Part shown: positions 13,145-34,469 of the stretch, piece by piece
How positions within the stretch are numbered: the stretch's first letter is position 1
Layout of the letters: every line of letters begins with the position of its first letter
Source: an uncultured virus (IMG/VR IMGVR_UViG_3300003876_000001)
Lineage: Duplodnaviria; Heunggongvirae; Uroviricota; Caudoviricetes
IMG/VR virus record: IMGVR_UViG_3300003876_000001
Coordinates: 1-64,000 of that record
Length of the DNA: 64,000 nt
Direction: 5' to 3' (one strand)
Notes under the pieces: generated by a model
The model's input: only the letters and a program-made list of their open reading frames with translations
The model's database searches: none
Told to the model about the DNA's origin: nothing
Made by a program: the position numbers and the translations under genes

Positions 13145-13217
13145 TACCACCAGAGGGACTTGAACCCTCAACTCTTCCGTTAAAAGCGGAATACTCTACC
13201 AATTGAGTTATGATGGC
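13145..13217 (-). tRNA. tRNA-Lys(TTT)
   Basis: Cloverleaf; TTCCG-CTTTTAA-CGGAA. Confidence 0.92.
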
Positions 13218-13268
13218 ATATTTTATCTTTATATTGTAACAATTAAAACAATTTAAAGATAATTATTG

Positions 13269-13351
13269 TACATCGGGTGGGATTCGAACCCACGTTGTTG
13301 CGAACAACCCTGATTAAAAGTCAGGTGCATAAGCCTCTCTGCCACCGATGT
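13269..13351 (-). tRNA. tRNA-Lys(TTT) with long variable arm
   Basis: CCTGA-CTTTTAA-TCAGG; V arm GTTGT-TCGCA-ACAAC; perfect acceptor and T stems. Confidence 0.85.
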
Positions 13352-13513
13352 ATTTAGTAATTTTTAGAGATAAGTACCGAAAAACAATACTTTACTCAAA
13401 TTATTACTATATCGCATATCGCAATACACGATATTTGATTATAATATATTAATAATCAACAAATTAAAAATTTTTATTTTGATTTGCGATACACTACACA
13501 ATGTGTAGTGTTG

Positions 13514-13586
13514 TGCATCCGAAGGGAGTCGAACCCTTATCTCGATAATTAAGAGTTACCTACTTTACCAGTTAAGTTACGGATGC
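13514..13586 (-). tRNA. tRNA-Lys(CTT)
   Basis: GGTAA-CTCTTAA-TTATC; acceptor GCATCCG/CGGATGC. Confidence 0.9.
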
Positions 13587-13783
13587 ATAGGAGAACCTCT
13601 ACACACCCGAAAGGGGAAATGTAGAAGGTCTACTGTTTATGTTTAAATTTAGTTCTCATTATATTAATTCTTTATCTTCGAACAAATCTCTTTGTCCATT
13701 AAATTCATTTAAAAGTGTTTGTTCACCTAATCTTGCTCTTACTTTATCAATCCATTCATTTGTTTTTACTTTGGACATCCAAA

Positions 13784-14131
13784 CTAATTCAGCAGCTTTT
13801 CATTTAATTTAATTACAAAAACATTTTTCTTTGAAGTTCTCACCATTAGAAACTTCCTTAATTCTTCAGTTAAACTATTGGTAATATTTGATGTTGCTAA
13901 ATTTTCTATACCGAAAATCTGTAACTGCAATTGCCAAATATCTCTATCCATTAAGCTAAACATTAAATCTCCAATATCCATAAAGAAATCCTTATGAATG
14001 AAATCTATGTCAATCTCTATGTCACCTTCAATAGTTTCTCCATTAACTCTGATTTGCTTTTGGGCAATCCTAGTTTTGAAGTCTTTTGAAAAGACACCAC
14101 TTCCATGCAATATTTCACTTAACCTTACCAT
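13784..14131 (-). CDS. S4-like RNA-binding protein resembling the TyrRS C-terminal domain
   Basis: LSEILHGSGV..IAQKQIRVNGETI and C-terminal FLMVRTSKKNVFVI. Confidence 0.5.
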   Translation of the reverse strand: MVRLSEILHGSGVFSKDFKTRIAQKQIRVNGETIEGDIEIDIDFIHKDFFMDIGDLMFSLMDRDIWQLQLQIFGIENLATSNITNSLTEELRKFLMVRTSKKNVFVIKLNEKLLN

Positions 14132-14315
14132 TATTTTATCATTTTAAATTATCCATAATAATAAATTTTCCAATTATCAGGTAAATATTCTGATAATGGA
14201 ATTATATTATTTTTATCAATAAGTCCTTCATGTACCATTCTATGACAATTTTAATATTGTTTTTTGAACTATATTACTTTTTAATATAGTCTAATTCAAT
14301 TAACAATGTTAATTG

Positions 14316-14396
14316 TTGTACGGAAGGGAATCGAACCCCCATAGCCGAAGCAGCACATTTACAGTGTGCGGAACTCACCACCTGTTCAACCGTACA
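14316..14396 (-). tRNA. tRNA-Tyr(GTA)
   Basis: GCACA-CTGTAAA-TGTGC, long V arm, acceptor TGTACGG/CCGTACA. Confidence 0.92.
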
Positions 14397-14405
14397 ATAT
14401 GGCAT

Positions 14406-14439
14406 AAAAAAACCCTGACTCATTTCTGAATCAGGGTTT
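14406..14439 (-). terminator. Attenuator terminator ahead of tRNA-Tyr/Lys operon
   Basis: AAACCCTGATTCA-gaaa-TGAGTCAGGGTTT plus T-tract. Confidence 0.85.
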
Positions 14440-14461
14440 CTATATTTTAAACTTTATGGCT

Positions 14462-14545
14462 TTAGCCACCAAAGTTAGTACATAGAATACCTGATCCAGT
14501 ATCTGGATAGTTTTTATATTTCTTATATGTATTAACTTTTGTCAT
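14462..14545 (-). CDS. Putative attenuation leader peptide MTKVNTYKKYKNYPDTGSGILCTNFGG
   Basis: 27-aa ORF with TAT AAG AAA TAT AAA AAC TAT run, followed by antiterminator, terminator and tRNA-Tyr/Lys. Confidence 0.75.
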   Translation of the reverse strand: MTKVNTYKKYKNYPDTGSGILCTNFGG

Positions 14546-14644
14546 GATTTCTAATTTATTTTGGTGGTATTACACTACCACCAGTTATGTCTTTTTTACT
14601 TATTATAATATCTTTTTTCATTAATTGTTTACAAAAATCGTTTA

Positions 14645-14675
14645 TAAATACGTAACATGCAAGAAAAAGGTTACA
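14645..14675 (-). promoter_or_regulatory. Phage promoter TGTAAC-N17-CGTATTTA
   Basis: Recurrent motif upstream of the Tyr/Lys leader. Confidence 0.65.
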
Positions 14676-14680
14676 AATTT

Positions 14681-14989
14681 TTAATAAAATTTAATAAAAG
14701 TGTTTAATTCGTTTAAATATAGTTGAATATGTGGGTATTTTTCAATAAATTTTTCTCTTTCATTTTTATTCCCACACACTAATAAATGCTCATAATATGT
14801 ACTCATTTCAGTTGGGAACATATGTATCGTCCACTTACGGATTTTCTTTCCCTTACTATTGTAGAGATGCTTTCTTGGTATAAATCTATATACTTGTTTT
14901 TTGAAGAACCATAAAAATCTTTCAGTACTTTCAAATCTCAAATATGCTTTATTATTATGTTTATATATAGTGTATTCTGTTAGTTCCAT
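14681..14989 (-). CDS. Hypothetical protein
   Basis: 102-aa ORF preceded by TATATTTG. Confidence 0.55.
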   Translation of the reverse strand: MELTEYTIYKHNNKAYLRFESTERFLWFFKKQVYRFIPRKHLYNSKGKKIRKWTIHMFPTEMSTYYEHLLVCGNKNEREKFIEKYPHIQLYLNELNTFIKFY

Positions 14990-15081
14990 TTTTTTATTTA
15001 TCTACAAATATAAATACTTTTATATCTAATGTAAAATACTATAAAATGAAAAAGGAGCGAATTATCGCCCCTTTATTTTTA

Positions 15082-17343: not shown

Positions 17344-17352
17344 TTATTTTAT

Positions 17353-20435: not shown

Positions 20436-20885
20436 ATACAAATATAGTTTAAAAATTTTTAAAAAGAAAGAAGAATTAATCCCCCTTCTTATATGCTAAC
20501 CAATAACGTTTTCTATCCATCTTTGGATCAAATACTAAATCGGAATAATAACTATCTGATACATTATATTTTTTATGATTAATGTTCCAATTATTTCTAA
20601 GAAACTTCTTTATTTGGAAATTTGATTTAGCACCTCTAAATGGATCGTGCATAAAAATGATTTAATATCATTCTAATACATGCACATCCACAAGTATAAT
20701 TAGTATCTTGACTATAAAGGGGGAGAGGAATCACCGATAAATTCTATTCGTGATCCGCAAAAGGTGATTAACCTTGTTCGATTAACGAGATAGAAAAACG
20801 TGAAGTTCTCAACGAACCTGTAACAGTATTTAACATGTATTCCGCTTCCAAGCGGTATGTTATTTTTCATATTCTTATAGTTTAG

Positions 20886-20969
20886 TAGCGAGTGAAGGAC
20901 TCGAACCTTCGTAAACCCGTAGGGACTCTACCTTATGAGGACAGCGAGATGCCACTTCTCCAACTCACG
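20886..20969 (-). tRNA. tRNA-Met(CAT), initiator-like, long variable arm
   Basis: C1xT72 mismatch, A11-T24, CTCATAA loop, 17-nt V region. Confidence 0.8.
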
Positions 20970-21116
20970 ATATACTAGTTTACGTTTCAAACTAGAAAAG
21001 CAGGTTTAGTTGCGAACTTTCCTTTCAGTGGGTGGTTCTTTTTGCTTTTCAGCTATCAGGCACGTTATCCCACAATTTCAACACGAAGCCAACGTGTTAC
21101 TAATCGTCTTTAATAT

Positions 21117-22871
21117 TTATATAAAAAGATTCATTATAGAATCTTTTTCAATTGTATTTAAACTTAAATCATTATCTGCCTTTTCAGGATCAGTAACAAA
21201 TTCAACACCTAATTTTCCAATTACTTCTCTCAAAGTAAGTGCATTGTTCCATTGTTGATAAAGTGCCTTTGTTGTTATATTTGCAACTTCACCATAACTA
21301 GAAATATGTTCTCTACCAGAACCGAAGTTCAAAATAACAAAAGATTGTCTCTCGTTACCAACTGGAAGAAATATACCTAACACACTTTGAGTTTGAACTG
21401 ATTGTGTCTTAATATCCACGAACAACTTTTCAGGGTTCATCATATAATTCTTATTGATATTATCACCTTTACCTACGATGATCTTGAATTCTGAATCAGG
21501 GTTTCCACTAAATACATTATTCATTACCAAAGTTGGTTCACTAAGTCCTCTATTTGCATAAAGATACTCAACAGCACCATTAGGTGCGTTGGTAATATCA
21601 CCAGAGAAATACAATGATCCACCTTGTTTATAATCTGAATTCCAACCGACTTTTCCACCGATATTCAAACCAGATAAATCAAGGTCAGTTGCACCCCAAG
21701 AGTTTTTCCAATAAATACCAACAGCAAGAGCATTACCATAGAATCTTGTTCCTGTTGGAACATTACCTACGTACATCTTTTCAGATGTTGGTAAAGCATA
21801 TTCTACATCTTCTGGAAGAAATATTTTCTTACCTGAAAGATCAAATCTATTTTTAATATAATTAAGAATATGTCCATAATTATATCCTGCAATACCTGCA
21901 TCAGTAGAATTCATCTTAGCAAATGATTTACCATTTCTAATTCTATATACAAAAGCATCTTGTCCATTCATTCTTGTCCAACAAGCAGACAATGCTTTAA
22001 ATAAAGCAAATGGTGTTGCATTATCTAACCAGTGATCATCACCTTCATTAAATGTAACCGAAGTTACTTCATTTAATGGATTACTAAGAAGTGGCTTATG
22101 ATATTTTTTAGATAACTTTGAAATTCTATTAATAGTACCACTACATTTAGGTTTAAAAGCTAAAAATAACGGCTTAAATCTATTAAATATTTCAGAAAGT
22201 TTTTCTAATCCAAATTTCTTAAATTGTGCAGATGGATTATAATTACTATCTTTTATCAATTCAATCATTTTATAATTTTTAATTAATAATGATTGTCCTG
22301 TTGTACGATAGATAATATATCTAAAAAACTCCATAGTATCTATTGGTAATACCCCATATATATCTGCAATTTTAATTATTGCTTCTTTGTTACGAATATT
22401 TTCTTTACCAGTAAATTCATAATCAAGTTCATCTACAAGAATTGATAATAAATCATTTATTGTTTCTTCTTTCAAAGCAATACCAGATTGAAGTAATGAT
22501 AATGATTTATCAATTAATTCATCTTTAGTATATGCTTTAACAACTTTAAATGATATTTTTAATCCTGAAATATCTAATACTTCATCAGGGATATAAACAT
22601 CATCTTTAAATCCACTACCATATGTAGATATATAATGTTTTATTTGATCAACCAATAGTTCATATCTTGAACTATTTTTTATTTTTAACCATGATTTATG
22701 AAATGTTTTATTTAAATCATTACCATTTAATCTACGACTATTATAATAGGTTACAATTCTATCTTTTGCCCATAAAGCACCAGATTCGATAATATATCCA
22801 TCTTCTGATACAAAAACATTATCTTTTGTATCTTTTTTTACAACCGCATTAAATAGTTCTAAAGTTTTCAT
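21117..22871 (-). CDS. Large protein with C-terminal TerD-like motifs
   Basis: SEKMYVGNVP, DLDLS, FSGDITNAPNGAVE. Confidence 0.55.
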   Translation of the reverse strand: MKTLELFNAVVKKDTKDNVFVSEDGYIIESGALWAKDRIVTYYNSRRLNGNDLNKTFHKSWLKIKNSSRYELLVDQIKHYISTYGSGFKDDVYIPDEVLDISGLKISFKVVKAYTKDELIDKSLSLLQSGIALKEETINDLLSILVDELDYEFTGKENIRNKEAIIKIADIYGVLPIDTMEFFRYIIYRTTGQSLLIKNYKMIELIKDSNYNPSAQFKKFGLEKLSEIFNRFKPLFLAFKPKCSGTINRISKLSKKYHKPLLSNPLNEVTSVTFNEGDDHWLDNATPFALFKALSACWTRMNGQDAFVYRIRNGKSFAKMNSTDAGIAGYNYGHILNYIKNRFDLSGKKIFLPEDVEYALPTSEKMYVGNVPTGTRFYGNALAVGIYWKNSWGATDLDLSGLNIGGKVGWNSDYKQGGSLYFSGDITNAPNGAVEYLYANRGLSEPTLVMNNVFSGNPDSEFKIIVGKGDNINKNYMMNPEKLFVDIKTQSVQTQSVLGIFLPVGNERQSFVILNFGSGREHISSYGEVANITTKALYQQWNNALTLREVIGKLGVEFVTDPEKADNDLSLNTIEKDSIMNLFI

Positions 22872-22886
22872 AATTTAATTTTTTAA

Positions 22887-23033
22887 AAAGGTGAGATGTA
22901 TTTACAGTAAAAATAGGGTTTCCCCTATTGAGTTTTATAGGAACATCATTTACCTTTATGTTTTAATTTATAAAAAAACAGACGAAAAGTATTTTTTATC
23001 CAAATATAAATTATAGGAACTTTTGTTGTCTGT
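22887..23033 (-). ncRNA. Two tandem copies of a stem-loop motif (GTTCCTATAA...AATAC)
   Basis: 22978-23033 and 22887-22957 share the loop core but have different stems; each is followed by a T-tract. Confidence 0.55.
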
Positions 23034-23102
23034 TATATTACAAATATACGTAAATATTTTTAATATGTTACAATTTTCTTATTTATTTTTAATTCTTTTT
23101 AG

Positions 23103-23188
23103 TAGCGAGTGAGGGATTCGAACCCCCGTAAACCCCGTAGGGACTCTGGCTTATGAAACCAGCGAGATACCAACTTCTCCAACTCACA
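23103..23188 (-). tRNA. tRNA-Met(CAT), initiator-like, long variable arm (paralog)
   Basis: T1xT72 mismatch, CTGGT-TTCATAA-GCCAG, V arm AGTCCCTACGGGGTTTAC. Confidence 0.8.
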
Positions 23189-23427
23189 ATATTTCATTAT
23201 AACTACCAATATGTTAATAGTTAAGTATATTTTTATATGATAACTAATCATATTTTAAAAGTTAAATTAATTAGTGTTGTTAATAAGTAGCAAGAGTCGA
23301 ACTTACCTACCAAATACTTACAAATGTGTTCACGTTTTAAACCGCTAATAACACCCCTGATCAGAGTAACAGTCGAAATCAAACCCAACCCACTAATCAA
23401 TATGACTCTTTAAATTTATTATTTTTG

Positions 23428-23502
23428 TACTCGGTACGGGGGTCGAACCCGTTATACCACCTTGAAAGGGTGGTGACTTAACCTACCGTTGTCCAACCGA
23501 GC
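23428..23502 (-). tRNA. tRNA-Glu(TTC)
   Basis: CCACC-CTTTCAA-GGTGG. Confidence 0.9.
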
Positions 23503-23592
23503 ATAGTTTTACGTCTGCTCGGTGACCGTTATACTATATCACTAGAGCAGAATTAATCTCTTGTTCACTTTCAAATATGTTGTTAATTCTGT

Positions 23593-23808: not shown

Positions 23809-24101
23809 CTAATATTTTAGCATCTTCTTCTTTAGGATATTTATCAAAAATTTTACCTTTAGTTTTTGTACCTAATCTATTGTCTTTAAAATATTCATTA
23901 CCTTTTTCATCAATATATTTAGTTGTTCCACCATCCATATACTTTGTAACTTCTTTTACTTTAATCATAATTTGTTTTCTTAACTCTTCAATAACTTCAT
24001 GCATTAAATCATCATAAGATTCCCTACTCATATGAACAACTAAATCACCTTCTTTAACTAAAGCAAATTTTGCACCAACAATATCATCTTTTCCATTCAT
24101 G

Positions 24102-24186
24102 TACCCTAAGTAGGATTCGAACCTACACGCCAGTTTATTAGCAACAGGGTTTGAACCTGCCGTGTCTACCTTTTCACCATTAGGGC
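24102..24186 (-). tRNA. tRNA-Leu(CAA)
   Basis: GCAGG-TTCAAAC-CCTGT, long V arm, A73. Confidence 0.88.
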
Positions 24187-24443
24187 ATTTTTAAATCACC
24201 TTCTTTTTTTGTTAAAATGAGTATATCAACAATCCAACGATTAAGTAATTTTGCATCCATTTGCTTATCAAAGTCTGCATCACCCATATCATCAACAGGT
24301 ATTTCAAAAAATACTGAATGACTATATGGTTCTTCTTCTATTCTTAATATTGTATTATAATAAGCAATACCTCTTCTAATATGTGTAAATTCAGCCTTTG
24401 GCTTTTGCTTATATAATGCTTTCTTTATTTCTGTTTTATTCAT
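24180..24443 (-). CDS. Hypothetical protein
   Basis: 87-aa ORF whose stop overlaps the tRNA-Leu 5' end. Confidence 0.55.
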   Translation of the reverse strand: MNKTEIKKALYKQKPKAEFTHIRRGIAYYNTILRIEEEPYSHSVFFEIPVDDMGDADFDKQMDAKLLNRWIVDILILTKKEGDLKMP

Positions 24444-24449
24444 TTTATA

Positions 24450-24707
24450 TTATTTATTAATCATTTCTAATATACCATATTTAATACACCATTTTCTAAC
24501 AGCATTATCACTTACATTAAATTCTTTCCCAACCCTAACAAATGTTTTATATTTTTTAAACATTTTTAATAATTCAGGTACTTTAGGAATATTTAATTCC
24601 ATGTCTTTATTATAACAATCTCTTGAACAATATTTTCTTTTATGTTTAAAGCAAAATTTTCCACAAAATATACATTTAGGATACTCCCTGTTGTTTATTG
24701 CACTCAT
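24450..24707 (-). CDS. Zn-finger plus HTH small protein (start moved to MSAINN)
   Basis: CIFCGK..YCSRDC; GKEFNVSDNAVRKW. Confidence 0.55.
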   Translation of the reverse strand: MSAINNREYPKCIFCGKFCFKHKRKYCSRDCYNKDMELNIPKVPELLKMFKKYKTFVRVGKEFNVSDNAVRKWCIKYGILEMINK

Positions 24708-24758
24708 TTTCTTTTTTAGATTTATTTTTTTATGTGTGCCTATTCGAAAATAAATTAG

Positions 24759-24833
24759 TACCAACGGAGGGACTCGAACCCTCGAAAAACATCGCTTAAA
24801 AATGTCGTGTATTCCCACGTCCACCACGCTGGC
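24759..24833 (-). tRNA. tRNA-Leu(TAA) with short variable loop
   Basis: ACATT-TTTAAGC-GATGT; only 5-nt V region. Confidence 0.7.
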
Positions 24834-25144
24834 ATCTTAAATCTGCTTCAGTGGTGGATAATCGTTCACTATGTATTTTATTCTTTCTCATTATTTCTTC
24901 TCATTTTTTTATAACTTTTAATACCTTCCTCTGTTAATTTATATTCATCATCTACTAATTTAAAATATCCTAAGTTAGTTGTTGTAGAGGTATCTCCTTC
25001 AATTAAAGAATTATGTGGTTTATTATGTTTAATATCCCACCAATATCTATCAATTAAAAAACCTATATTAAACATCTTTATTTAATCTTATTCTTAATTC
25101 TCTATTTTCATTTAAGGCTTCTAACCATTTCAAGTATTGCTCCA

Positions 25145-25558
25145 CTATACGTGTTCAATACATTCAAAATCTTTATTATATATTTTCCAAAAACATCCTT
25201 GACCACAAATTAATTGAAACCAATAATCTTTAAAAAACCAAATACCAGAACTAAAATCACCACTAAATTTTTCATTTTCAACAGTTTCAATTCTAGTAGT
25301 TATATAGCCACAAAGAAATTCCATTAAAGGTGTACCATTTTTTTCATGTCCTTTATTAAAACAATATGTACTTCTTTCATCACCATTTTTTTCTAGCAAT
25401 TTTTGGAAAATAGGTTCAAACTCGTTTGTTTCTAACCATTTTTCAAATTTATTATATCTTTTCTCAAGATTAGCATTTTTTTTTGCCAATCTAGCAAAGA
25501 AACCATCAGGATTTTCCATATCTTCTTTCATATCCCTTTTAAACTTTTCAATATCCAT
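25145..25558 (-). CDS. Hypothetical protein
   Basis: 137-aa ORF. Confidence 0.6.
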   Translation of the reverse strand: MDIEKFKRDMKEDMENPDGFFARLAKKNANLEKRYNKFEKWLETNEFEPIFQKLLEKNGDERSTYCFNKGHEKNGTPLMEFLCGYITTRIETVENEKFSGDFSSGIWFFKDYWFQLICGQGCFWKIYNKDFECIEHV

Positions 25559-25576
25559 ATTAGTTTTTTATTTAAG

Positions 25577-25673
25577 TGGCGATCAGGGGATTCGAACCAA
25601 TATAACTCATATTCATCATTAAAGTTATCCTTCTACTTCCCGATGAAAGGCGTGTAGATACCAATAGATCACC
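25577..25673 (-). ncRNA. Degenerate tRNA-like element
   Basis: Acceptor GGTGATC/GATCGCC and GGTTCGAATCC; no canonical anticodon arm. Confidence 0.45.
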
Positions 25674-25679
25674 ATATTG

Positions 25680-26033
25680 TGGAAGTAAGGAGACTTGAAC
25701 TCCTGTCCAGTTATATTACAAATAAAAAGTCATTCACAAGTTTAGTTTGTTTATTATTTTTAAGTCATTATGTTTTTTATTTACAAACACTTTATTACAT
25801 TAGACTTTTTGGTTTTATGTTCCACAACATTTTTTGATCTCTTTACGTGATCAGTATCTATGAGAACACCTACCTAGTTGGTGGTATCTCGAATGGTACA
25901 AAAACCTTTCGGTTATGCTGCCATTGCAAGTGCTTCGCCACTTAAACGTTCATTACCTATTTTTAATGAGTAGAGCAATTTCCTCATACTTGCACCGTCT
26001 ACCTATCGTATCCTGTCAATTCCTGTTACCCCC
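25680..26033 (-). ncRNA. ssrA: tmRNA, tag (A)GEALAMAA* at 25939..25913
   Basis: GGGGGTA/TACTTCCA acceptor with G3.U70, GGAATTGAC, GGAGTTCAAGTCTCC T arm, tag ending AA-stop. Confidence 0.93.
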
Positions 26034-26072
26034 ATATTTCAATTTTTATTATATCCGTTTGATATAATTTAG

Positions 26073-26291
26073 TGAAGATGGAAGGACTCGAACCCTCAAA
26101 CCAGACTTTCTCTCTTACCTCTACTATCATTTAGATTTCGATTTCTATTTTACCGACATATCCCGAAGGGTAACTTGGTTCAACTAAGCAGTAAGCATTA
26201 TGGTATTCATCTCTTCATCAGTATTATTTATTCCCAAATGAACTTTGTACTTATTCTAAAACAAGCGTGTTTACCTTTCCACCACATCCTC
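26073..26291 (-). tRNA. Leu-like tRNA with ~135-nt insertion in the anticodon region
   Basis: Acceptor GAGGATG/CATCTTC, D arm GTGGAAAGGTAAACAC, T arm GAGGGTTCGAGTCCTTC. Confidence 0.6.
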
Positions 26292-26324
26292 ATATTTTCA
26301 TTATATCCGTTTGATATAATATTG

Positions 26325-26479
26325 CTAACTAAATAGGATTCGAACCTATGACCCCTTTCGATATTTGCTTCTCGTAATCAGGGTAATTGTTTCCGTTCAT
26401 GAGCAAAAGATAAAGAAGTTCACCCTCTATCAATCATATAGAACTAGACATCCGCATTAAGCCACTCTGCCATTAGTTA
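26325..26479 (-). tRNA. tRNA scaffold with 83-nt anticodon loop
   Basis: TAACTAA/TTAGTTA, D arm GCAGAGTGGCTTAATGC, stem GATGT/ATATC, T arm ATAGGTTCGAATCCTAT. Confidence 0.6.
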
Positions 26480-26512
26480 ATTTTAAATTATATCCGTTTG
26501 ATATAATATTTG

Positions 26513-26695
26513 TAGCGTAGACAGGTATCGAACCTGCTTTCTCTCCCTTTGACGAGTGCGAAGTGCGTTCATTCAAAATAGTAACTTCATATATCGGTTA
26601 ATACGTACTCACCTCAAATATAAACTATTCTTTATTGTCAGTATTCAGGAGCGACCCAAATATTAAACAAACATGAACTTCAATTCTTCCACATC
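26513..26695 (-). ncRNA. tRNA-like element with large insert (5' boundary uncertain)
   Basis: GCAGGTTCGATACCTGT T arm and 3' CTACGCTA; weak 5' acceptor. Confidence 0.35.
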
Positions 26696-26707
26696 ACAGA
26701 AGTTTAG

Positions 26708-26779
26708 TTAACTAGGTAGGATTCGAACCCACGTTCTCCCCATTTAAAAGGGGCGACTTTACCACTTGTCCACTAGTTA
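26708..26779 (-). tRNA. Class I tRNA, anticodon ambiguous (TAA as read)
   Basis: TAACTAG/CTAGTTA; CCCC-TTTTAAAT-GGGG anticodon arm. Confidence 0.65.
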
Positions 26780-26880
26780 AACATTTACTATCTCCACACG
26801 ACAATGCTTCGAGTTCAATGTGTCCTTCATTTTCTGCTATCGGTATTGTCGTACCTATCGCATACTTCTGCCAGACTTTT

Positions 26881-26982
26881 GTGAAGTATAAGGAATTGAA
26901 CCTTAACGATAAACTACATATTTAAATATTGAAACTATTTTAAGCCAAGACATTTAAATCATCATTTAACCCTTTTACTTCA
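26881..26982 (-). ncRNA. tRNA-like top half (acceptor plus T arm) with AT-rich interior
   Basis: TGAAGTA/TACTTCA; TAAGG-TTCAATT-CCTTA. Confidence 0.4.
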
Positions 26983-27223
26983 TTTGTTAACATATCCGTT
27001 TGATCTGCACCTATTCTTTCGAAGGTCACACCCACATGTATACCAATTCCATCATACCATAATTTTGTGCCATATTGGGGACTCGAACCCATAATAGGAA
27101 ATTACCCCTATGTTAAATGATTAATGCCAATTATCGCTAGTGACTAATAGTTTCCACGATATTTCAATGCATTATACTTTATCGTTTTCACTTCATTCCA
27201 TTACAGCATATTTTTTTAGGTCT

Positions 27224-27342
27224 TCAAGTAATAAGGAATTTAACCTTAATCCTTTACTTCTGTTGCCAACCTATTGTCACCATACTAATAGGCTATCGTT
27301 GGTCGGTACATGGAAGTATCGTGCACATTACACCATACTTTA
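27224..27342 (-). ncRNA. tRNA-like element with 52-nt anticodon loop
   Basis: D-like GTGTAATGTGCAC, stem TACTTC/GAAGTA, T-like TAAGGTTAAATTCCTTA. Confidence 0.4.
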
Positions 27343-27352
27343 ATGACCAGTG

Positions 27353-27424
27353 CGGAACATAGGGGAATCGAACCCCTACCCTATGAGTGATAGTCATATA
27401 TCCTAGCCGTTAGACCAATGCTCC
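27353..27424 (-). tRNA. tRNA-Asp with ATC anticodon
   Basis: TATGA-CTATCAC-TCATA; GGAGCAT/ATGTTCC, G73. Confidence 0.8.
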
Positions 27425-27931
27425 GTTTATATTTCAAATATACGTAAACTTTTTTAAAAGGTTACATATTAATGTAAATAAATTTCAAAATCTTTAAAAA
27501 TTTTAACAACTTCTTTACGTTTTAGTTTTTTATCTTTTCTACTATAAAAATGATAATATTTATTATTTAATAATTTAACAAATCCCATTTTATTAAGAAT
27601 GCCACCATATACTTCAGTACATTTATCTGTTGCATCTGTATGTGCACTAAAACAAACATAATCAAAAGATTTAAGTTCATCATTGTAAATATTACTAATT
27701 TTTCTAATTAATTTAATCAGTTTTACTTACATATGTACTTCTTTTACTATTAGAAGATTTGGTTGTAATTAATATACTAGGCATTGAAATTTTAATATTA
27801 CCATATTGAAATATTAAATGGCTTATTTGATATTCAATATCTTCATATTTAAATCTACATATTTCTTTATCAACCATATATTTATAATACGTAAACTTTT
27901 TTAAAAGGTTACAATTTATTTAAAAATTTTG

Positions 27932-28003
27932 TACCGATGGAGTGAATCGAACACTCGTATACATTCTTATGAGAAATGTGCCTTACCACTTGGCGACATC
28001 GGC
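27932..28003 (-). tRNA. tRNA-CAT (elongator Met or Ile2)
   Basis: CATTT-CTCATAA-GAATG. Confidence 0.85.
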
Positions 28004-28380
28004 ATTTATAAATTCTTTGAATTGTTCTTCAACAAACTTTTTATTATATGAACCCATATCTTTTATTATGTACGGTTCATATCCATAATTTTTAATTTCA
28101 ATTAATTTCAATCTATCCCTATTTTGTACTTGTTTTACTGAATGATTTTTGATTATTTTTTCATAATGCCATTTACCATTCCATAAAATTGCTATTTTAA
28201 TATCGTGAATAATAACATCAGCATCCCATCCATTAAAAATTTTTTCATTAGTTTCAACATTTTTAAAATATTCTATACATAAATCCGCAAAATAGATTTC
28301 ATTTTTACTTCGTCTAACTTTATTTGATTTTTTTACTTTATTTGCTCTATATTTACCAACACAAGAACGACTACAAAATT
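27983..28380 (-). CDS. PD-(D/E)XK/DUF559-like endonuclease (N-terminus uncertain)
   Basis: FCSRSC, RSKNE, ADVII..IAILWNGKWH; the computed start lies inside tRNA-Asp. Confidence 0.55.
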
Positions 28381-28383
28381 TTG

Positions 28384-28454
28384 CCGTCCATGAGGGAATC
28401 AAACCCTCGGCAATCGGGAGACAACCGATCATGTTATCATTACACCAATGGACG
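28384..28454 (-). tRNA. tRNA-Asp(GTC)
   Basis: ATCGG-TTGTCTC-CCGAT; G73. Confidence 0.82.
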
Positions 28455-28488
28455 TTATGTTATAACTAGTTGATTTTCAACTACTTTG

Positions 28489-28561
28489 CTCGCCCTGAAA
28501 GATTTGAACTTTCATCTTCAGTTTTGGAGACTGCTATGTTACCGTTGATCACCAAGAGCGA
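28489..28561 (-). tRNA. tRNA-Trp(CCA)
   Basis: GCAGT-CTCCAAA-ACTGA; G73. Confidence 0.88.
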
Positions 28562-28634
28562 ATATAAAACAACGTTGATATCTGGTTCAACGTTGAAAAC
28601 CTTTTTTAAATCCAGACCATAAGGTAAAGACCAG

Positions 28635-28707
28635 TTGGGTGTGTGGGACTCGAACCCACGATATTCTGCATGTAAAACAGATGCCTTTGCCACTAGACGA
28701 ACACCCA
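28635..28707 (-). tRNA. tRNA-Val(TAC)
   Basis: TCTGT-TTTACAT-GCAGA; A73. Confidence 0.88.
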
Positions 28708-28718
28708 ATAAATTATGA

Positions 28719-28841
28719 ACCACTAGGTAGGACTCGAACCTACAAGGGATGTCCCACATGTTACCATGCAGCAGGGGTTTTCTATAACCCCTACAAACCA
28801 CCTTCAACGGTGATAGTGTATACCTGTTCCACCACTAACAA
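28719..28841 (-). tRNA. Atypical 123-nt tRNA with multi-hairpin variable region
   Basis: Leu-like D arm, ATCAC/GTGGT stem with 8-nt loop, three V hairpins, GTAGGTTCGAGTCCTAC. Confidence 0.55.
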
Positions 28842-28848
28842 TTCATAG

Positions 28849-28924
28849 TAATCGGTAAAGGATTTAAACCTCTATCTGGTGGCTTTTGACCCCACCTATC
28901 CTAGTTCCATTAGACGAACCGATC
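28849..28924 (-). tRNA. tRNA-Glu paralog with 9-nt anticodon loop
   Basis: GGTGG-GGTCAAAAG-CCACC; body similar to 29694-29765. Confidence 0.6.
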
Positions 28925-28997
28925 ATAAACAACGTTGATTAACGGGTTCAACGTTGAAAACCTTTGTAGAATCCAAACCAAAGGTAAGGATCAAAAT

Positions 28998-29642
28998 TTA
29001 TATTATACGACCTTTAATCCAATCGTTTTTTATATAGTCATTTAAATCAAATAATTTAATTTTTTTATTAACATCATTTTTTGTTATCCAACATGTTCCA
29101 TATTGGGAGTTACTTTTCCCTTTTCCCATTCCCTTGCTAGATTCACTCATTTTTCTTTTACTTTCTTCATTATGATATTTATTTTTAAAATTATTATATT
29201 TAAGTTTTCCTTCTTTATGTGTTTTTTTTATTCTTTCCGAAGAAAGTTTTATTTGCATTTTTCTATATGAAGGGTCTTTCCATTTTTCTTTTAAAAATTT
29301 AGATGCACCATTACGAATATTTTCTCTTTTGTCTTCAGATAATCCTATTAATCCACCACCACCACCAACAACTAAATTCATACAATCTTTTTTGGCAATT
29401 TCATTTAAATTAATAATCTCCTTTTCTTTATTTTTTAAATCAATTCTATTTTCAAAGAACTCTAATACTTCAACACTATGATTTTCTTTACCATATTTAT
29501 TAATCGAATATCTTAATCTTTTACCTGAACCATAATAACCATCATTTAAATCATCAGTACTATGCATACCATAATAGTATTTACCGTTTAAATTATTTGT
29601 TGTCTTATACAAATAATGATATTTCTTTTGTTTTCTTGCCAT
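28998..29642 (-). CDS. GIY-YIG homing endonuclease (Seg-like, NUMOD3)
   Basis: YLYKTTN..KYYYG.H, YYGSG, HNEESKRKMS. Confidence 0.85.
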   Translation of the reverse strand: MARKQKKYHYLYKTTNNLNGKYYYGMHSTDDLNDGYYGSGKRLRYSINKYGKENHSVEVLEFFENRIDLKNKEKEIINLNEIAKKDCMNLVVGGGGGLIGLSEDKRENIRNGASKFLKEKWKDPSYRKMQIKLSSERIKKTHKEGKLKYNNFKNKYHNEESKRKMSESSKGMGKGKSNSQYGTCWITKNDVNKKIKLFDLNDYIKNDWIKGRII

Positions 29643-29693
29643 ATTTACAATGTTTAATTATAAATATTACAAAGGTACAAAAACGACCAAAAG

Positions 29694-29765
29694 TACTCGG
29701 TAGGGGAATCGAACCCCTATCTGATGGCTGAAAACCACCCGTCCTAACCGTTAGACGAACCGAGC
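29694..29765 (-). tRNA. tRNA-Glu(TTC)
   Basis: GGTGG-TTTTCAG-CCATC. Confidence 0.9.
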
Positions 29766-29770
29766 AAATA

Positions 29771-29942
29771 AATGTTGAGTTTATAGTTCTTTCACATATT
29801 GGTGTAATCTAACAGTACGAGTACGGTTTCAATATATGATGTTGGAAAAGCCAGACCATGTTAGAGTCGTCATATTACACATAAAGCCGATACTAATCTT
29901 ATGCTGTCGATAGTCTATAAACAACCGCTTCCTTTCAACATT
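29771..29942 (-). ncRNA. ~172-nt rod-like RNA with internal bubbles (6S-like candidate)
   Basis: AATGTTGA/TCAACATT, GTTTATAG/CTATAAAC, GTGTAAT/ATTACAC, TCTAACA/TGTTAGA. Confidence 0.55.
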
Positions 29943-29944
29943 AG

Positions 29945-30016
29945 TGGAGAGTAAGGGAGTCGAACCCTTATCCATTGAGTGCAAGTCAATAATAATAGCC
30001 ATTATACTAACTCCCC
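29945..30016 (-). tRNA. tRNA-Ala(TGC)
   Basis: ATTGA-CTTGCAC-TCAAT; G3.U70. Confidence 0.9.
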
Positions 30017-30367: not shown

Positions 30368-30389
30368 AATTTCTAAACCCTTATAAAAC

Positions 30390-30416
30390 AAAAAACCCAA
30401 TCTGTTAGGATTGGGT
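30390..30416 (-). terminator. Attenuator terminator ahead of tRNA-Ala/Glu/Val/Asp operon
   Basis: ACCCAATC-ctaaca-GATTGGGT plus T-tract. Confidence 0.85.
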
Positions 30417-30444
30417 CTTCAATTTCGTTTGGATGTTTTAGTAG

Positions 30445-30532
30445 TTAAACTAATTCACCTTCTCCTGAAGACCCTAGACACAAATCGTCCACCTCAACTG
30501 CTTCCGCAACTAATTGTTCTTGAATTCTTCAT
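30445..30532 (-). CDS. Putative leader peptide ...IQEQLVAEAVEVDDLCLGSSGEGELV (1 nt out of frame with the ATG)
   Basis: Nine consecutive GNN codons at 30510..30484; antiterminator GGGTCTTCA at 30474..30466. Confidence 0.6.
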
Positions 30533-30619
30533 CTTTTTAATTATTTTAAAGTTATTATACTTTGTTCTATATTAAATACGTTGCAAATATAAAAAAGGTT
30601 TAGTTAAGATGCAAGTTTT

Positions 30620-33533: not shown

Positions 33534-33586
33534 AAAATCTTTATTATAAATACATTATAGTTTAATAAAAATAAATTTTAAATTTT

Positions 33587-33617
33587 TGTAACCAAAACCT
33601 AAAGTACTACGTATTTA
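33587..33617 (+). promoter_or_regulatory. Phage promoter TGTAAC-N17-CGTATTTA
   Basis: Recurrent motif upstream of the Pro/Gln/His leader. Confidence 0.65.
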
Positions 33618-33788
33618 TTAGCAAGAAAGCGAAGTTATCGCTTAAACGTTTAAGTTAAGTCTTTAAAAAAGAAAAGAAAATAGCTTCTCCCTAGTGTAAT
33701 AACTGAGGGTAGGTAAAAGTTTTTTGCAAAATGACTTGTTTATTTAAATTATATGTATTATAATTGCGTTGAATTAAAAAATAGAACA

Positions 33789-33872
33789 ATGAAAAGATTA
33801 GTTAACATAGTAGGTCAACCCCAACCGCAGCATCAACATCAGATGTTGAACGGGGAGAATATGTCTAGTTAA
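33789..33872 (+). CDS. Putative attenuation leader peptide MKRLVNIVGQPQPQHQHQMLNGENMSS
   Basis: 27-aa ORF with CAA CCC CAA CCG CAG CAT CAA CAT CAG run, followed by antiterminator, terminator and tRNA-Pro/Gln/His. Confidence 0.8.
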   Translation: MKRLVNIVGQPQPQHQHQMLNGENMSS

Positions 33873-33897
33873 CTATTGTAATTATAATAATTAATAG

Positions 33898-33932
33898 AAC
33901 CCTGTTCACATCAAAATGAACAGGGTTTTTTT
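33898..33932 (+). terminator. Attenuator terminator ahead of tRNA-Pro/His/Gln operon
   Basis: AACCCTGTTCA-catcaaaa-TGAACAGGGTT plus T-tract. Confidence 0.87.
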
Positions 33933-33977
33933 ATGTTCATACTTTTGTAAAACGTTACAAATTTTAATATTAAATAT

Positions 33978-34053
33978 CTAGGTGCGATCCATGAGGTGTG
34001 GTTGCTCGACTTGGAATCGAGATTATTTACAGGTTCAACTCCTGTCACTTAGA
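33978..34053 (+). tRNA. tRNA-Pro(TGG)
   Basis: CTCGA-CTTGGAA-TCGAG; C1-G72, A73. Confidence 0.82.
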
Positions 34054-34079
34054 CTTATTGTTCTTTGATTTATTAATAT

Positions 34080-34155
34080 CGGGTAATGGACTAATCAGGT
34101 AAGTCGCTTCGTTTGGGACGAAGACATCATGGGGGTTCGATTCCCTCTTACCCGA
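34080..34155 (+). tRNA. tRNA-Pro(TGG)
   Basis: CTTCG-TTTGGGA-CGAAG; CGGGTAA/TTACCCG. Confidence 0.9.
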
Positions 34156-34169
34156 CTTATAACTTTTCA

Positions 34170-34236
34170 TATATGAAAGGTAGCATTGTCGGGTCGTGAC
34201 CCCGAAGGTATGGATTCGATTTCCATTAAACACCCA
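34170..34236 (+). pseudogene. tRNA-His(GTG)-like, 5' acceptor strand missing
   Basis: TCGGG-TCGTGAC-CCCGA; ATGGA-TTCGATT-TCCAT. Confidence 0.55.
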
Positions 34237-34239
34237 TAT

Positions 34240-34312
34240 TGACTTATTGTATAACGGTTTATTACGCCAAATTTTGAATTTGGAGATTCTGGTTCGATTC
34301 CAGATAGGTCAG
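34240..34312 (+). tRNA. tRNA-Gln(TTG)
   Basis: CCAAA-TTTTGAA-TTTGG; T1-A72, G73. Confidence 0.9.
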
Positions 34313-34317
34313 CAAAT

Positions 34318-34390
34318 GGTGTTCGTAGTATAACGGTAAACACGCTTGATTGTGATTCAAGTAATGCCTGTTCGATTCTGGTCGAACACC
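34318..34390 (+). tRNA. tRNA-His(GTG)
   Basis: CTTGA-TTGTGAT-TCAAG; G-1/C73. Confidence 0.9.
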
Positions 34391-34398
34391 CAAAATAT

Positions 34399-34469
34399 TC
34401 CCATATGGGGTAATAGTAACTCGCAACACTTTGAATGTTGAGCCATAGGAGCGTAACCTATTATGGGTG
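34399..34469 (+). tRNA. tRNA-Gln(TTG), atypical T loop
   Basis: CAACA-CTTTGAA-TGTTG; T loop AGCGTAA. Confidence 0.78.

What the first reader, a model, noticed from the sequence alone, without database searches (positions are those of the whole stretch)
13145..34469. Leader-peptide attenuators controlling phage tRNA operons: codon-matched, on-demand tRNA supply
Seen: three unrelated loci share one architecture of promoter, 27-28-codon leader ORF with a run of control codons, a segment complementary to the 5' strand of a terminator, an intrinsic terminator, then a tRNA cluster. In each case the control codons are those read by the downstream tRNAs (Y/K; Q/P/H; V/A/E/D). The runs include GC-rich synonymous codons (CCC, CCG, CAG, GCG, GAG, GTG, GAC, AAG) that stand out in this AT-rich genome. 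Established: this is the logic of ribosome-mediated attenuation in the trp, his, thr, ilv and pheST operons. Inference: the phage senses loss of specific charged tRNAs, through starvation or host anticodon nucleases, and switches on the matching replacement tRNAs. I am not aware of this being described for tRNA operons or for phages; a literature search is needed.
Basis: partly seen in the sequence, partly recalled or inferred. Interest (0 to 1): 0.97.

Follow-up and report, generated by a model that had tools for sequence, protein, structure and literature searches.

The report
Leader-peptide attenuators controlling phage tRNA operons
A 326-kb phage and its relatives put a tiny "test" gene and a transcription stop signal in front of each block of tRNA genes, and the test gene is built from the codons those tRNAs read, so the phage probably makes a set of tRNAs only when that set runs short.

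Summary
The finding holds and is larger than reported. Two window loci are intact as described: leader MTKVNTYKKYKNY… before tRNA-Tyr/Lys, and leader …QPQPQHQHQ… before tRNA-Pro/His/Gln. In the window the third leader (VAEAVEVDD) is out of frame with its ATG. A complete copy of the same phage (G003) and an independent contig of run X1 carry 32 more bases, which give an in-frame 39-codon leader.

G003 has a fourth leader outside the window, rich in N/T/I/S/R/L/G/F/C, before 21 tRNAs for those residues. Five related 320–360-kb phages (terminase 56–58% identical) have the same four units. That makes 24 of 24 loci with an ATG leader, a segment complementary to the terminator's 5' arm, a terminator, then tRNAs. 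The true leader-to-operon assignment ranks 1 of 24 permutations in 6 of 6 genomes. The antiterminator sequence changes together with the terminator.

Together the four operons cover all 20 amino acids. Most promoters look Bacteroidota-type.

Seven literature searches found no description of this. Lak-C1 and T5 lack it. The mechanism (trp/his-type attenuation) is inferred from sequence only; there are no RNA data. I rate it a new variant of a known kind, of high interest.

The parts
14602..14631 (-). Promoter-like site of the Tyr/Lys unit (TAAACA, 18 nt, TATAAT)
   Evidence: Consensus scan, 10 of 12 matches. In the five relatives the same position carries TAnnTTTG.
14462..14545 (-). Leader ORF C, 27 codons: MTKVNTYKKYKNYPDTGSGILCTNFGG
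   Evidence: Homologous leaders in 5 relatives and 26 IMG/VR stretches.
14507..14527 (-). Control codons TAT AAG AAA TAT AAA AAC TAT (Y K K Y K N Y)
   Evidence: All 7 Tyr/Lys codons of the leader are read by operon anticodons GTA, CTT, TTT.
14503..14510 (-). Region 1 (pairs with region 2 when no ribosome is stalled on it)
   Evidence: Minimum-energy folds
14490..14499 (-). Region 2, antiterminator strand CUGGAUCAGG inside the ORF, complementary to the terminator 5' arm
   Evidence: Duplex -19.3 kcal/mol with flanks. With the 5' arm alone -12.4, reached by 1 of 200 shuffles.
14403..14439 (-). Intrinsic terminator (regions 3 and 4: 13-bp stem, 4-nt loop, T-run), 14 nt before tRNA-Tyr
13144..14396 (-). 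tRNA-Tyr(GTA), two ORFs, tRNA-Lys(CTT), tRNA-Lys(TTT) x2
30584..30591 (-). TATATTTG, a Bacteroidota-type -7 promoter motif of the B unit (TTG about 20 nt upstream)
   Evidence: The consensus itself is recalled, not from a call.
30445..30532 (-). Leader ORF B as it stands in the window. It is broken by a 32-base gap between 30512 and 30511. The intact form has 39 codons.
   Evidence: window frames; G003; contig of run X1
30484..30510 (-). Control codons GTT GCG GAA GCA GTT GAG GTG GAC GAT (V A E A V E V D D). In the intact form they are preceded by M E A M L W.
30465..30474 (-). Region 2 of unit B, GGGUCUUCAG, complementary to UUGAAGACCC at the foot of the terminator
   Evidence: Duplex -16.8 kcal/mol; 2 of 200 shuffles reach it
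30383..30420 (-). Intrinsic terminator of unit B (12 pairs, 6-nt loop, T-run)
20885..30016 (-). tRNAs of unit B in transcription order: Ala, Glu, Leu(CAA), Val, Trp, Asp, Met, Asp, Leu(TAA) x2, Leu(CAA), Glu, Met, Met. ORFs, a tmRNA-like gene and an intron-bearing tRNA lie in between.
   Evidence: Whether the distal ones still depend on this attenuator was not tested.
33736..33764 (+). Promoter-like site of unit A (TTGTTT, 17 nt, TATAAT)
   Evidence: Read. The relatives have TAnnTTTG here.
33789..33872 (+). Leader ORF A, 27 codons: MKRLVNIVGQPQPQHQHQMLNGENMSS
33816..33842 (+). Control codons CAA CCC CAA CCG CAG CAT CAA CAT CAG (Q P Q P Q H Q H Q). Region 1 (33819-33834) lies inside this run.
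   Evidence: 9 of 9 residues are in the set; only this ORF among 623 small ORFs reaches that.
33847..33855 (+). Region 2 of unit A, UGAACGGGG, complementary to CCCUGUUCA of the terminator
   Evidence: Duplex -14.9 kcal/mol; 0 of 200 shuffles reach it
33896..33937 (+). Intrinsic terminator of unit A (13-bp stem, 8-nt loop, T-run)
33978..34469 (+). tRNA-Pro(TGG) x2, tRNA-His (5' half missing in the window, whole in G003), Gln(TTG), His(GTG), Gln(UUG)

Best explanation
Each tRNA operon of this phage lineage is preceded by a classical ribosome-mediated (trp/his-type) transcription attenuator.

The layout is as follows. A host-type promoter starts a transcript whose first element is a 22-45-codon leader ORF. 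The middle of the ORF is packed with codons for the amino acids whose tRNAs lie downstream. The 3' part of the ORF holds region 2, a near-copy of the terminator's 3' arm. Region 2 can pair either with an upstream region 1 or with the terminator's 5' arm (region 3).

The proposed switch works like this. If the cell can decode the control codons quickly, the ribosome runs to the stop codon, which lies -1 to 25 nt after region 2. Region 2 is then covered or re-captured by region 1, the 3:4 terminator forms, and transcription ends before the tRNAs. If charged tRNAs for those codons are scarce, the ribosome stalls on the control codons and on region 1. Region 2 then pairs with region 3, the terminator cannot form, and the tRNA operon is transcribed.

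The products are the very tRNAs that relieve the stall, so each unit is a self-limiting feedback loop. Four units (A: P/H/Q; B: D/E/V/A/L/W/M; C: K/Y; D: T/C/N/I/S/F/G/R, plus L in this phage) cover all 20 amino acids.

Shown here: the anatomy, its conservation, the codon-to-tRNA matching and the coordinated change of the pairings. Inferred: translation of the leaders, coupling to transcription, and the response to tRNA supply.
For: (1) Anatomy is present in 24 of 24 loci (6 genomes x 4 units): ATG ORF, in-ORF complement of the terminator arm (-8.5 to -21.5 kcal/mol), terminator, then tRNAs.

(2) The first tRNA starts at most 50 nt after the terminator in 19 of 24 loci (7-49 nt). That leaves no room for a separate promoter, so these tRNAs can only be reached by read-through.

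(3) Matching. Leader residues are enriched for the operon's own amino-acid set (binomial p from 5e-2 to 4e-8) and never for another operon's set. The true assignment ranks 1 of 24 permutations in 6 of 6 genomes. Against 623 small ATG ORFs of the 139-kb contig, type A and B windows are reached by 0-2 null ORFs, the leader itself included.

(4) Codon level. 389 of 420 in-set leader codons are read by an operon anticodon under simple wobble; the rest are mostly in four-fold boxes with a U34 tRNA. In G003 the CUN-reading Leu tRNAs sit in operon D and leader D has CTA and CTC. The UUR-reading Leu tRNAs sit in operon B and leader B has TTA and TTG.

(5) Prediction fulfilled. A fourth leader outside the window, MKNNNTYISRISNLLTSSICGNGTFNGRR…, precedes Thr, Gly, Leu, Ile, Asn, Phe, Ser and Arg tRNAs. 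A tRNA-Cys there is seen by Rfam.

(6) The 2:3 pairing beats 200 dinucleotide shuffles (mean z -3.15; at most 9 of 200 shuffles reach it in 21 of 24 loci). The cognate arm is the best of the six same-type arms in 12 of 24 loci, where 4 are expected. There are base-for-base changes in regions 2, 3 and 4. In type A the triplet is C-G-C in G003 and G009 against U-A-U in the other four. In G007 type D a U in region 3 is met by an A in region 2.

(7) 1:2 hairpins overlap the control codons. Terminator and antiterminator energies are comparable.

(8) Specificity. In the 139-kb contig there are 50 terminator-like sites and 17 ORF-terminator combinations. The two with the strongest 2:3 pairing are leaders A and C, and both sit directly before tRNAs.

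(9) Spread. The degenerate YYYxKKxYKK pattern hits 32 IMG/VR stretches. 26 are short ORFs, 26 of 26 have a terminator and tRNAs, and in 25 of 26 the tRNAs are Lys/Tyr only. Of 120 hits in bacterial and archaeal genomes only one has this layout, and it is the G010 phage contig filed in a MAG.

(10) TAnnTTTG lies within 100 nt upstream of 22 of 24 leaders, against a background of 0.08 per 100 nt.
Against: There are no expression data of any kind, so translation of the leaders, termination and read-through are all unobserved.

- The 2:3 pairing is weak in some loci: G007 A (28 of 200 shuffles reach it), G007 C (19 of 200) and G008 B (13 of 200). The cognate arm ranks 4th to 6th of 6 in 6 loci.
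- Type D enrichment is not exceptional against AT-rich off-frame ORFs: 2-22 of 623 null ORFs reach it.
- In type C, regions 2 and 3 are almost invariant across 20 sequences, so they give no covariation.
- In type C the stop codon lies 15-25 nt after region 2. A terminating ribosome would not cover region 2, and re-formation of 1:2 must be invoked.
- The six genomes are related, so the 24 loci are not independent.
- In the window's own assembly leader B is out of frame.
- In 5 of 24 loci the gap between terminator and first tRNA is 95-375 nt, which could hold another promoter.
- No Shine-Dalgarno sequence precedes any leader. That fits Bacteroidota, but the host is only inferred.
Confidence: 0.8

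Rival explanations
1. The units are translation-coupled attenuators that act as a general gauge of translation capacity, such as host shut-off, ribosome shortage or any slowing. In this view they are not amino-acid-specific sensors, and the composition of the leaders is secondary.
For: The same anatomy as in the best explanation. In type B the 1:2 helix encloses nearly the whole ORF, so a ribosome stalled anywhere in it would free region 2.
Against: It does not explain why each leader is enriched only for its own operon's amino acids (1 of 24 permutations in 6 of 6 genomes). It does not explain why the order of Q/P/H or Y/K residues is shuffled between genomes while the composition is kept. 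It does not explain why Leu CUN codons appear in leader D only where the CUN tRNAs moved to operon D.
Confidence: 0.08
2. The switch between terminator and antiterminator is set without a ribosome, by direct binding of tRNA (T-box-like) or of a phage or host protein. The ORFs would then be incidental.
For: The alternative pairings alone do not say what chooses between them. tRNA-sensing leaders (T-boxes) are established in Firmicutes; this point is recalled.
Against: No Rfam family, T-box included, matches the leaders at E up to 1 in window 12500-35500. The only overlap is a chance-level sRNA hit at E 0.15. All 24 loci keep an ATG, an open frame of 22-45 codons in DNA where 27% GC makes stop codons frequent, and a stop placed just after region 2. 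The composition is conserved at the level of residues, not of sequence. One leader lists up to eight amino acids, which a single specifier-type contact cannot read.
Confidence: 0.06
3. There is no regulation. The hairpins are ordinary terminators of short upstream transcripts or small-protein genes, and the likeness between leader composition and tRNA content is chance or compositional bias.
For: AT-rich genomes hold many short ORFs: 623 of 20-46 codons in 139 kb. Type D-like composition is common among them.
Against: 19 of 24 tRNA blocks begin within 50 nt of the terminator, so they could not be expressed without read-through. The matching, the excess 2:3 pairing and the conservation across phages with 56-58% identical terminases all speak against chance. 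Control hits of the same pattern elsewhere lack terminators and tRNAs: 6 of 32 in IMG/VR and 119 of 120 in cellular genomes.
Confidence: 0.03

Closest known systems
Leader-peptide attenuators of amino-acid biosynthesis operons (trp, his, leu, thr, ilvGMEDA, pheA of enterobacteria)
   Same: A short leader ORF with a run of regulatory codons, mutually exclusive 1:2 / 2:3 / 3:4 pairings, and an intrinsic terminator before the regulated genes. Multi-amino-acid leaders also exist there: thr senses Thr and Ile, ilv senses Ile, Leu and Val (recalled).
   Different: The regulated genes here are tRNA genes, not enzymes, so the product acts directly on the sensor. The element is in a phage. One leader lists up to eight amino acids. 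Four such units partition the whole code. There is no sequence likeness to the Rfam leader families (no hit).
pheST attenuator (phenylalanyl-tRNA synthetase) of E. coli
   Same: Leader-peptide attenuation applied to a gene of the translation apparatus, sensing charged tRNA of the matching amino acid (recalled).
   Different: It controls a synthetase, senses one amino acid and is cellular. Here the tRNAs themselves are controlled.
T-box riboswitches
   Same: Terminator/antiterminator leaders that respond to the state of a specific tRNA and control translation-related genes (recalled).
   Different: A T-box binds uncharged tRNA directly, without a leader ORF, and reads one specifier codon. No T-box match was found here. 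These leaders are ORFs with many codons.
tRNA gene arrays of other large phages (T5, Lak megaphages)
   Same: Dozens of phage tRNA genes in one region, interspersed with homing endonucleases and small ORFs.
   Different: In T5 (20-kb tRNA region) and Lak-C1 (two tRNA regions) my scan found no small ORF with a terminator-complementary segment ahead of tRNAs, and their tRNAs are not grouped by amino-acid set.

Membership tests
Ribosome-mediated (leader-peptide) transcription attenuator | Short translatable ORF between promoter and terminator | tested here: met
   24 of 24 loci in six genomes have an ATG ORF of 22-45 codons. In the window 2 of 3 are intact; the third is intact in G003 and in a contig of run X1. 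Translation itself was not observed.
Ribosome-mediated (leader-peptide) transcription attenuator | Regulatory codons that correspond to the regulated pathway | tested here: met
   Enrichment for the operon's own set only; true assignment ranks 1 of 24 in 6 of 6 genomes. 389 of 420 in-set codons are read by operon anticodons.
Ribosome-mediated (leader-peptide) transcription attenuator | Intrinsic terminator between the leader and the regulated genes | tested here: met
   A hairpin of 9-14 pairs plus a T-run in 24 of 24 loci, 17-35 nt after the stop codon. The window's three are seen; the consensus scan over 12500-32000 lists the one at 30420-30391.
Ribosome-mediated (leader-peptide) transcription attenuator | Antiterminator pairing (2:3) that excludes the terminator (3:4) | tested here: met
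   Found in 24 of 24 loci. Mean z is -3.15 against shuffles, with three weak loci. Regions 2, 3 and 4 change together.
Ribosome-mediated (leader-peptide) transcription attenuator | Region 1 that sequesters region 2 and lies under a ribosome stalled at the control codons | tested here: met
   Minimum-energy folds pair region 2 with an upstream segment that overlaps or flanks the control codons. This is a thermodynamic prediction only.
Ribosome-mediated (leader-peptide) transcription attenuator | Stop codon placed so that an unimpeded ribosome prevents 2:3 | tested here: inconclusive
   The distance from region 2 to the stop codon is -1 to 14 nt in 11 of 24 loci, within a ribosome's reach. It is 15-25 nt in the other 13, including all six type C loci.
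Ribosome-mediated (leader-peptide) transcription attenuator | Read-through rises when the cognate charged tRNA is scarce | not testable with these tools
   This needs reporters, in-vitro coupled systems or 3'-end mapping.
Rfam leader families (His_leader, Trp_leader, Thr_leader, Leu_leader and the like) | Match to the covariance model | tested here: not met
   No such hit at E up to 1 in window 12500-35500.
T-box riboswitch | Stem I specifier loop and T-box sequence (Rfam T-box model) | tested here: not met
   No hit at E up to 1. The leaders are ORFs with many different codons.

The most novel reading that the evidence does not exclude
A lineage of roughly 320-360-kb phages, probably of Bacteroidota, runs its near-complete tRNA set as four self-sensing modules. 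Each tRNA operon is switched on by ribosome stalling at exactly the codons its tRNAs decode. The phage would then continuously measure the host's decoding capacity codon group by codon group. It would replace whatever is missing, whether through codon-usage mismatch, its own host shut-off or tRNA-cleaving host defences, and would shut each module off again once supply is restored. This would be the first case of tRNA genes autoregulated through translation of a leader peptide, and the first leader-peptide attenuator found in a virus.
Probability: 0.6. Interest if true: 0.95.

Novelty: new variant of a known kind. Interest (0 to 1): 0.92.

Why it matters
It is an open question why large phages carry tRNAs and how they dose them. 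Codon-usage compensation, host tRNA decay and evasion of anticodon nucleases are all debated; I saw one such paper only as a listing and abstract (PMC11555353).

These leaders would give a direct, sequence-readable answer for one lineage. tRNA output would be coupled to the measured shortage of each codon group. They would extend a textbook mechanism, attenuation, to a new class of genes (stable RNAs whose product feeds back on its own sensor) and to viruses.

They are also practical tools. Each leader is a compact natural sensor for the decoding capacity of a defined set of amino acids. The leader composition predicts operon content, which helps annotate metagenomic phage genomes.

The hypothesis is directly testable with short reporter constructs.

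Tried and rejected
- The degenerate QPQPQHQHQ pattern in IMG/VR gave 25 stretches. Only 1 was a leader with tRNAs, and it was the same phage.
- I used neighbouring proteins as anchors. The AAA-protease-like ORF found only the same phage. The RNA ligase found two relatives (48% identity) whose flanks hold no tRNA; one of those contigs has a single tRNA and the other none. The terminase alone found only the same phage. An alignment of terminase homologues was needed.
- The scan's earlier findings held nothing for this genome.
- MAFFT alignments of the four leader types shift region 3 by one column in some rows. I therefore did not run the count of structure pairs on them and used structure-anchored tables instead.
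- The 20-sequence type C alignment shows regions 2 and 3 nearly invariant, so it is uninformative for covariation.
- Lak-C1 has no comparable leader in its two tRNA regions. T5 has none in its 20-kb tRNA region.
- Expression: no RNA holder was listed for the stretch searched, so there is no evidence either way.
- Runs X17 and X18 laid nothing on the stretch.
- The paper on 'moraphages' (PMC12619734; passages read via find) describes a different lineage of up to 307 kb and does not mention attenuation.
- Pfam found nothing for most small ORFs between the tRNAs, so I do not name them.
- I rejected an ATT start or a programmed frameshift for leader B once G003 showed the 32 missing bases.

Full report
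**What the window is.** The window is the first 64 kb of a 138,979-bp virus contig with 27% GC. The same phage exists as a complete 325,854-bp IMG/VR record (G003, IMGVR_UViG_3300003877_000001). CheckV estimates it as 100% complete and it carries 49 tRNA matches. The two assemblies are 100% identical over the shared tRNA region except for four indels of about 32-60 bases. The phage encodes a terminase, a portal and a T4-like major head protein. The head protein is only about 32% identical to that of any deposited phage, so there is no cultured relative.

**Checking the observation.** ARAGORN and Rfam find 22-26 tRNA genes between 13.1 and 34.5 kb.

- Window 14462-14545 (-) is a 27-codon ORF with Y K K Y K N Y. 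A terminator follows, and tRNA-Tyr starts 14 nt after it, followed by three tRNA-Lys.
- Window 33789-33872 (+) is a 27-codon ORF with Q P Q P Q H Q H Q. A terminator follows, then Pro, Pro, His, Gln, His, Gln.

The third leader is not an ORF in the window. The ATG at 30532 stops after 12 codons, and the VAEAVEVDD frame has no start codon. G003 has 32 extra bases exactly at window 30512/30511. They put the ATG in frame and give a 39-codon leader, MKNSRTILNTNMEAMLWSVAEAVEVDDLCLGSSGEGELV. A 42,938-base contig of sequencing run X1 carries that form with no difference and no gap. That run may be the source sample, so this shows only that the intact form is what another assembly yields. I therefore treat the window's gap as an assembly fault or a minor variant.

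**A prediction that came true.** G003 holds a further block of 21 tRNAs beyond the window's start. About 100 nt upstream of it lie the same kind of promoter region and a 41-codon ORF, MKNNNTYISRISNLLTSSICGNGTFNGRRAKIGSNVDIVIS. Inside the ORF the segment AGAUCGGGU is complementary to the terminator arm ACCCGAUCU, and a terminator follows. The tRNAs behind it are Thr, Gly, Leu(CUN) x3, Ile x4, Asn x2, Phe x2, Ser x2, Arg x5 and more. A tRNA-Cys(GCA) there is seen only by Rfam. With this unit the four operons of G003 cover all 20 amino acids.

**Relatives.** An alignment of terminase homologues retrieved 226 related stretches in IMG/VR, of which 80 were kept. Seven of those lie on contigs of 246-363 kb. 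Five of these (G005, G007, G008, G009, G010; terminase 56-58% identical) carry 42-65 tRNAs each, and two carry only 3-4.

I fetched the tRNA regions and scanned them for a terminator preceded by a small ORF. All five have the same four units in the same order.
- Unit A: leaders such as MKNLVHIQPQHQPQKVEWGYYA, before only Pro, His and Gln tRNAs.
- Unit B: leaders such as MKKVLDILMVALIAVLLWDDAEDMLYGVG, before Asp, Glu, Val, Leu, Ala, Trp and Met.
- Unit C: leaders such as MRTFGTYYYGKKSYKKQLIGIGNTMTKGKI, before only Lys and Tyr.
- Unit D: leaders such as MKTYRKISEDSTSTSSRNGNGIFCSIFTGRNNADTGSGFKDIDL, before Thr, Cys, Asn, Ile, Ser, Phe, Gly and Arg.

The order of the key residues differs between genomes while the composition is kept. 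That is what selection on codon content, rather than on a peptide, would give.

**Is the matching more than chance?**
- With the amino-acid frequencies of 94 long ORFs as background, each leader is enriched for its own operon's set (p from 5e-2 to 4e-8) and for no other set. The true leader-to-operon assignment is the best of 24 permutations in 6 of 6 genomes.
- I compared against all 623 ATG ORFs of 20-46 codons in the 139-kb contig. The best 9-residue window of type A (7-9 of 9) is reached by at most 2 ORFs, the leader itself included. Type B (11-12 of 12) is reached by none. Type C (6-7 of 9) is reached by 0-5.
- Type D (16-18 of 18) is reached by 2-22, so for D composition alone is weak evidence.
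- At codon level, 389 of 420 in-set codons are read by an operon anticodon under simple wobble.
- Where this phage differs from its relatives the leader follows. Its CUN-reading Leu tRNAs sit in operon D and leader D has CTA and CTC. Its UUR-reading Leu tRNAs sit in operon B and leader B has TTA and TTG.
In leader A 4 of 9 control codons end in G or C where 0.07 is expected from genome usage, and in leader D 7 of 31 where 0.08 is expected.

**The RNA switch.** In 24 of 24 loci a segment in the 3' part of the ORF (region 2) is complementary to the 5' arm of the terminator (region 3), with duplex energies of -8.5 to -21.5 kcal/mol.
- Against 200 dinucleotide shuffles of each upstream sequence the mean z is -3.15. 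At most 9 of 200 shuffles reach the observed value in 21 of 24 loci. The weak ones are G007 A (28 of 200), G007 C (19 of 200) and G008 B (13 of 200).
- The cognate arm is the best of the six arms of its type in 12 of 24 loci, where 4 are expected. It ranks 4th to 6th in 6 loci.
- A structure-anchored table shows regions 2, 3 and 4 changing together. In type A the triplet is C-G-C in G003 and G009 against U-A-U in the other four. In G007 type D a U in region 3 pairs with A in region 2 and with G in region 4.
- Folding the ORF up to region 2 pairs region 2 with an upstream region 1. In type A that partner is the CCCC of a proline control codon, and in the window's type C it is AUCCAG right after the last Tyr codon.
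- Terminator hairpins (-10.9 to -20.0 kcal/mol) and antiterminators (-7.6 to -30.1) are of similar strength.
- The last control codon lies 7-38 nt before region 2 and the first lies 30-89 nt before it. The stop codon follows region 2 by -1 to 25 nt.

**Dependence of the tRNAs on read-through.** The first tRNA begins 7-49 nt after the terminator in 19 of 24 loci. That is too close for a promoter of its own. The other five gaps are 95-375 nt. In the window's unit B the gap holds a 47-codon ORF and a tRNA-like remnant.

**Promoters and host.** The motif TAnnTTTG, with TTG or TTTG about 20 nt upstream, lies 30-73 nt before the ATG of 22 of 24 leaders. The background is 0.08 per 100 nt. I recall this as the -7/-33 consensus of Bacteroidota promoters; the consensus comes from no call. 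None of the leaders has a Shine-Dalgarno sequence, which I also recall as typical of that phylum. The two exceptions are the window's units A and C, which have sigma-70-like hexamers instead.

**Specificity and spread.**
- In the whole 139-kb contig there are 50 terminator-like sites and 17 combinations of a small ORF with a terminator. The two with the strongest 2:3 pairing are leaders A and C, and both stand directly before tRNAs. Leader B is missed there because of the 32-base gap.
- A degenerate pattern for YYYxKKxYKK hits 32 IMG/VR stretches. 26 are short ORFs of 26-31 codons (18 distinct sequences), 26 of 26 have a terminator and tRNAs in the 700-nt flank, and in 25 of 26 these are only Lys and Tyr. 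The six other hits have none of this.
Only one has the layout, and it is the G010 phage contig filed in a MAG.
- Two outgroups with large tRNA arrays, Prevotella phage Lak-C1 and phage T5, show no such leaders.

**How it most likely works.** The anatomy is that of trp/his-type attenuation. A ribosome that decodes the control codons without delay reaches the stop codon. Region 2 is then covered or re-captured by region 1, the terminator forms, and the tRNAs are not made. A ribosome stalled for lack of the cognate charged tRNAs sits on the control codons and region 1. Region 2 pairs with region 3 and RNA polymerase reads into the tRNA genes. The new tRNAs relieve the stall, so each unit limits itself. 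What depletes the pool is not shown by anything here. Candidates are codon-usage mismatch with the host, phage-induced decay of host tRNAs, starvation and host anticodon nucleases.

**Comparison with what is known.** All structural features that define a leader-peptide attenuator are met. The functional one cannot be tested here. The differences are the cargo (tRNA genes), the carrier (a phage), the breadth of each leader (two to eight amino acids) and the partition of the whole code into four units. No Rfam leader family or T-box matches.

Seven full-text searches found no paper that links leader peptides or attenuation with tRNA genes or phage tRNAs. The library lacks most subscription journals, so this is not proof of absence.

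**Verdict.** I rate it a new variant of a known kind and of high interest.

Noticed in passing
window 30511/30512, 34176-34178, 27716/27717, 17363/17364: The window's assembly differs from the complete record G003 by four indels of about 32-60 bases in otherwise identical sequence. One breaks leader B and one removes the 5' half of a tRNA-His.
   Followed up: partly
window 25677-26033 (-): A tmRNA-like gene lies inside tRNA operon B. It scores 43 bits against Rfam's gathering score of 47, with E 3e-14.
   Followed up: no
window 26073-26291 (-): A tRNA match is spread over 219 bases, so the tRNA gene probably carries an insertion or intron of about 150 nt.
   Followed up: no
window 15082-20228 (-): An RNA-repair and translation module lies between tRNA operons B and C. 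It comprises a T4-type RNA ligase (Pfam), an IF3-like initiation factor, an RNA 2'-phosphotransferase and a metallophosphoesterase (PHROGs).
   Followed up: partly
L030 18718-18788 (G003), and the end of operon D in G005, G007, G009, G010: A tRNA with anticodon CUA, an amber suppressor that ARAGORN calls Pyl, closes the tRNA region in 5 of 6 genomes. It hints that TAG may be read as sense in part of the infection cycle.
   Followed up: no
window 30153-30364 (-): Between terminator B and tRNA-Ala this phage alone has a 47-codon ORF with no family match and a degenerate tRNA-like sequence (24 bits, below threshold). The relatives have 41-43 nt here.
   Followed up: partly
L228 (JBAZIW010000001.1, 362,763 bp): The complete phage genome G010 is also deposited as a contig of a 'Candidatus Paceibacterota' MAG, with the same length and the same coordinates of the leader. 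It is most likely a phage genome binned with a bacterium.
   Followed up: no
window 34480-34758 (+) and 61762-63399 (+): HNH and homing endonuclease genes lie next to the tRNA block and next to the head gene (Pfam, PHROGs). Other small ORFs between the tRNAs have no family match.
   Followed up: partly
window about 30125-30145 (-) and L030 about 5690-5710: A shared motif TTATTTGACGTATTG follows the first tRNA or tRNA-like element of units B and D. The related CGTATTTA follows or precedes the -7 motif in most leaders. It may be a phage-specific promoter element.
   Followed up: no
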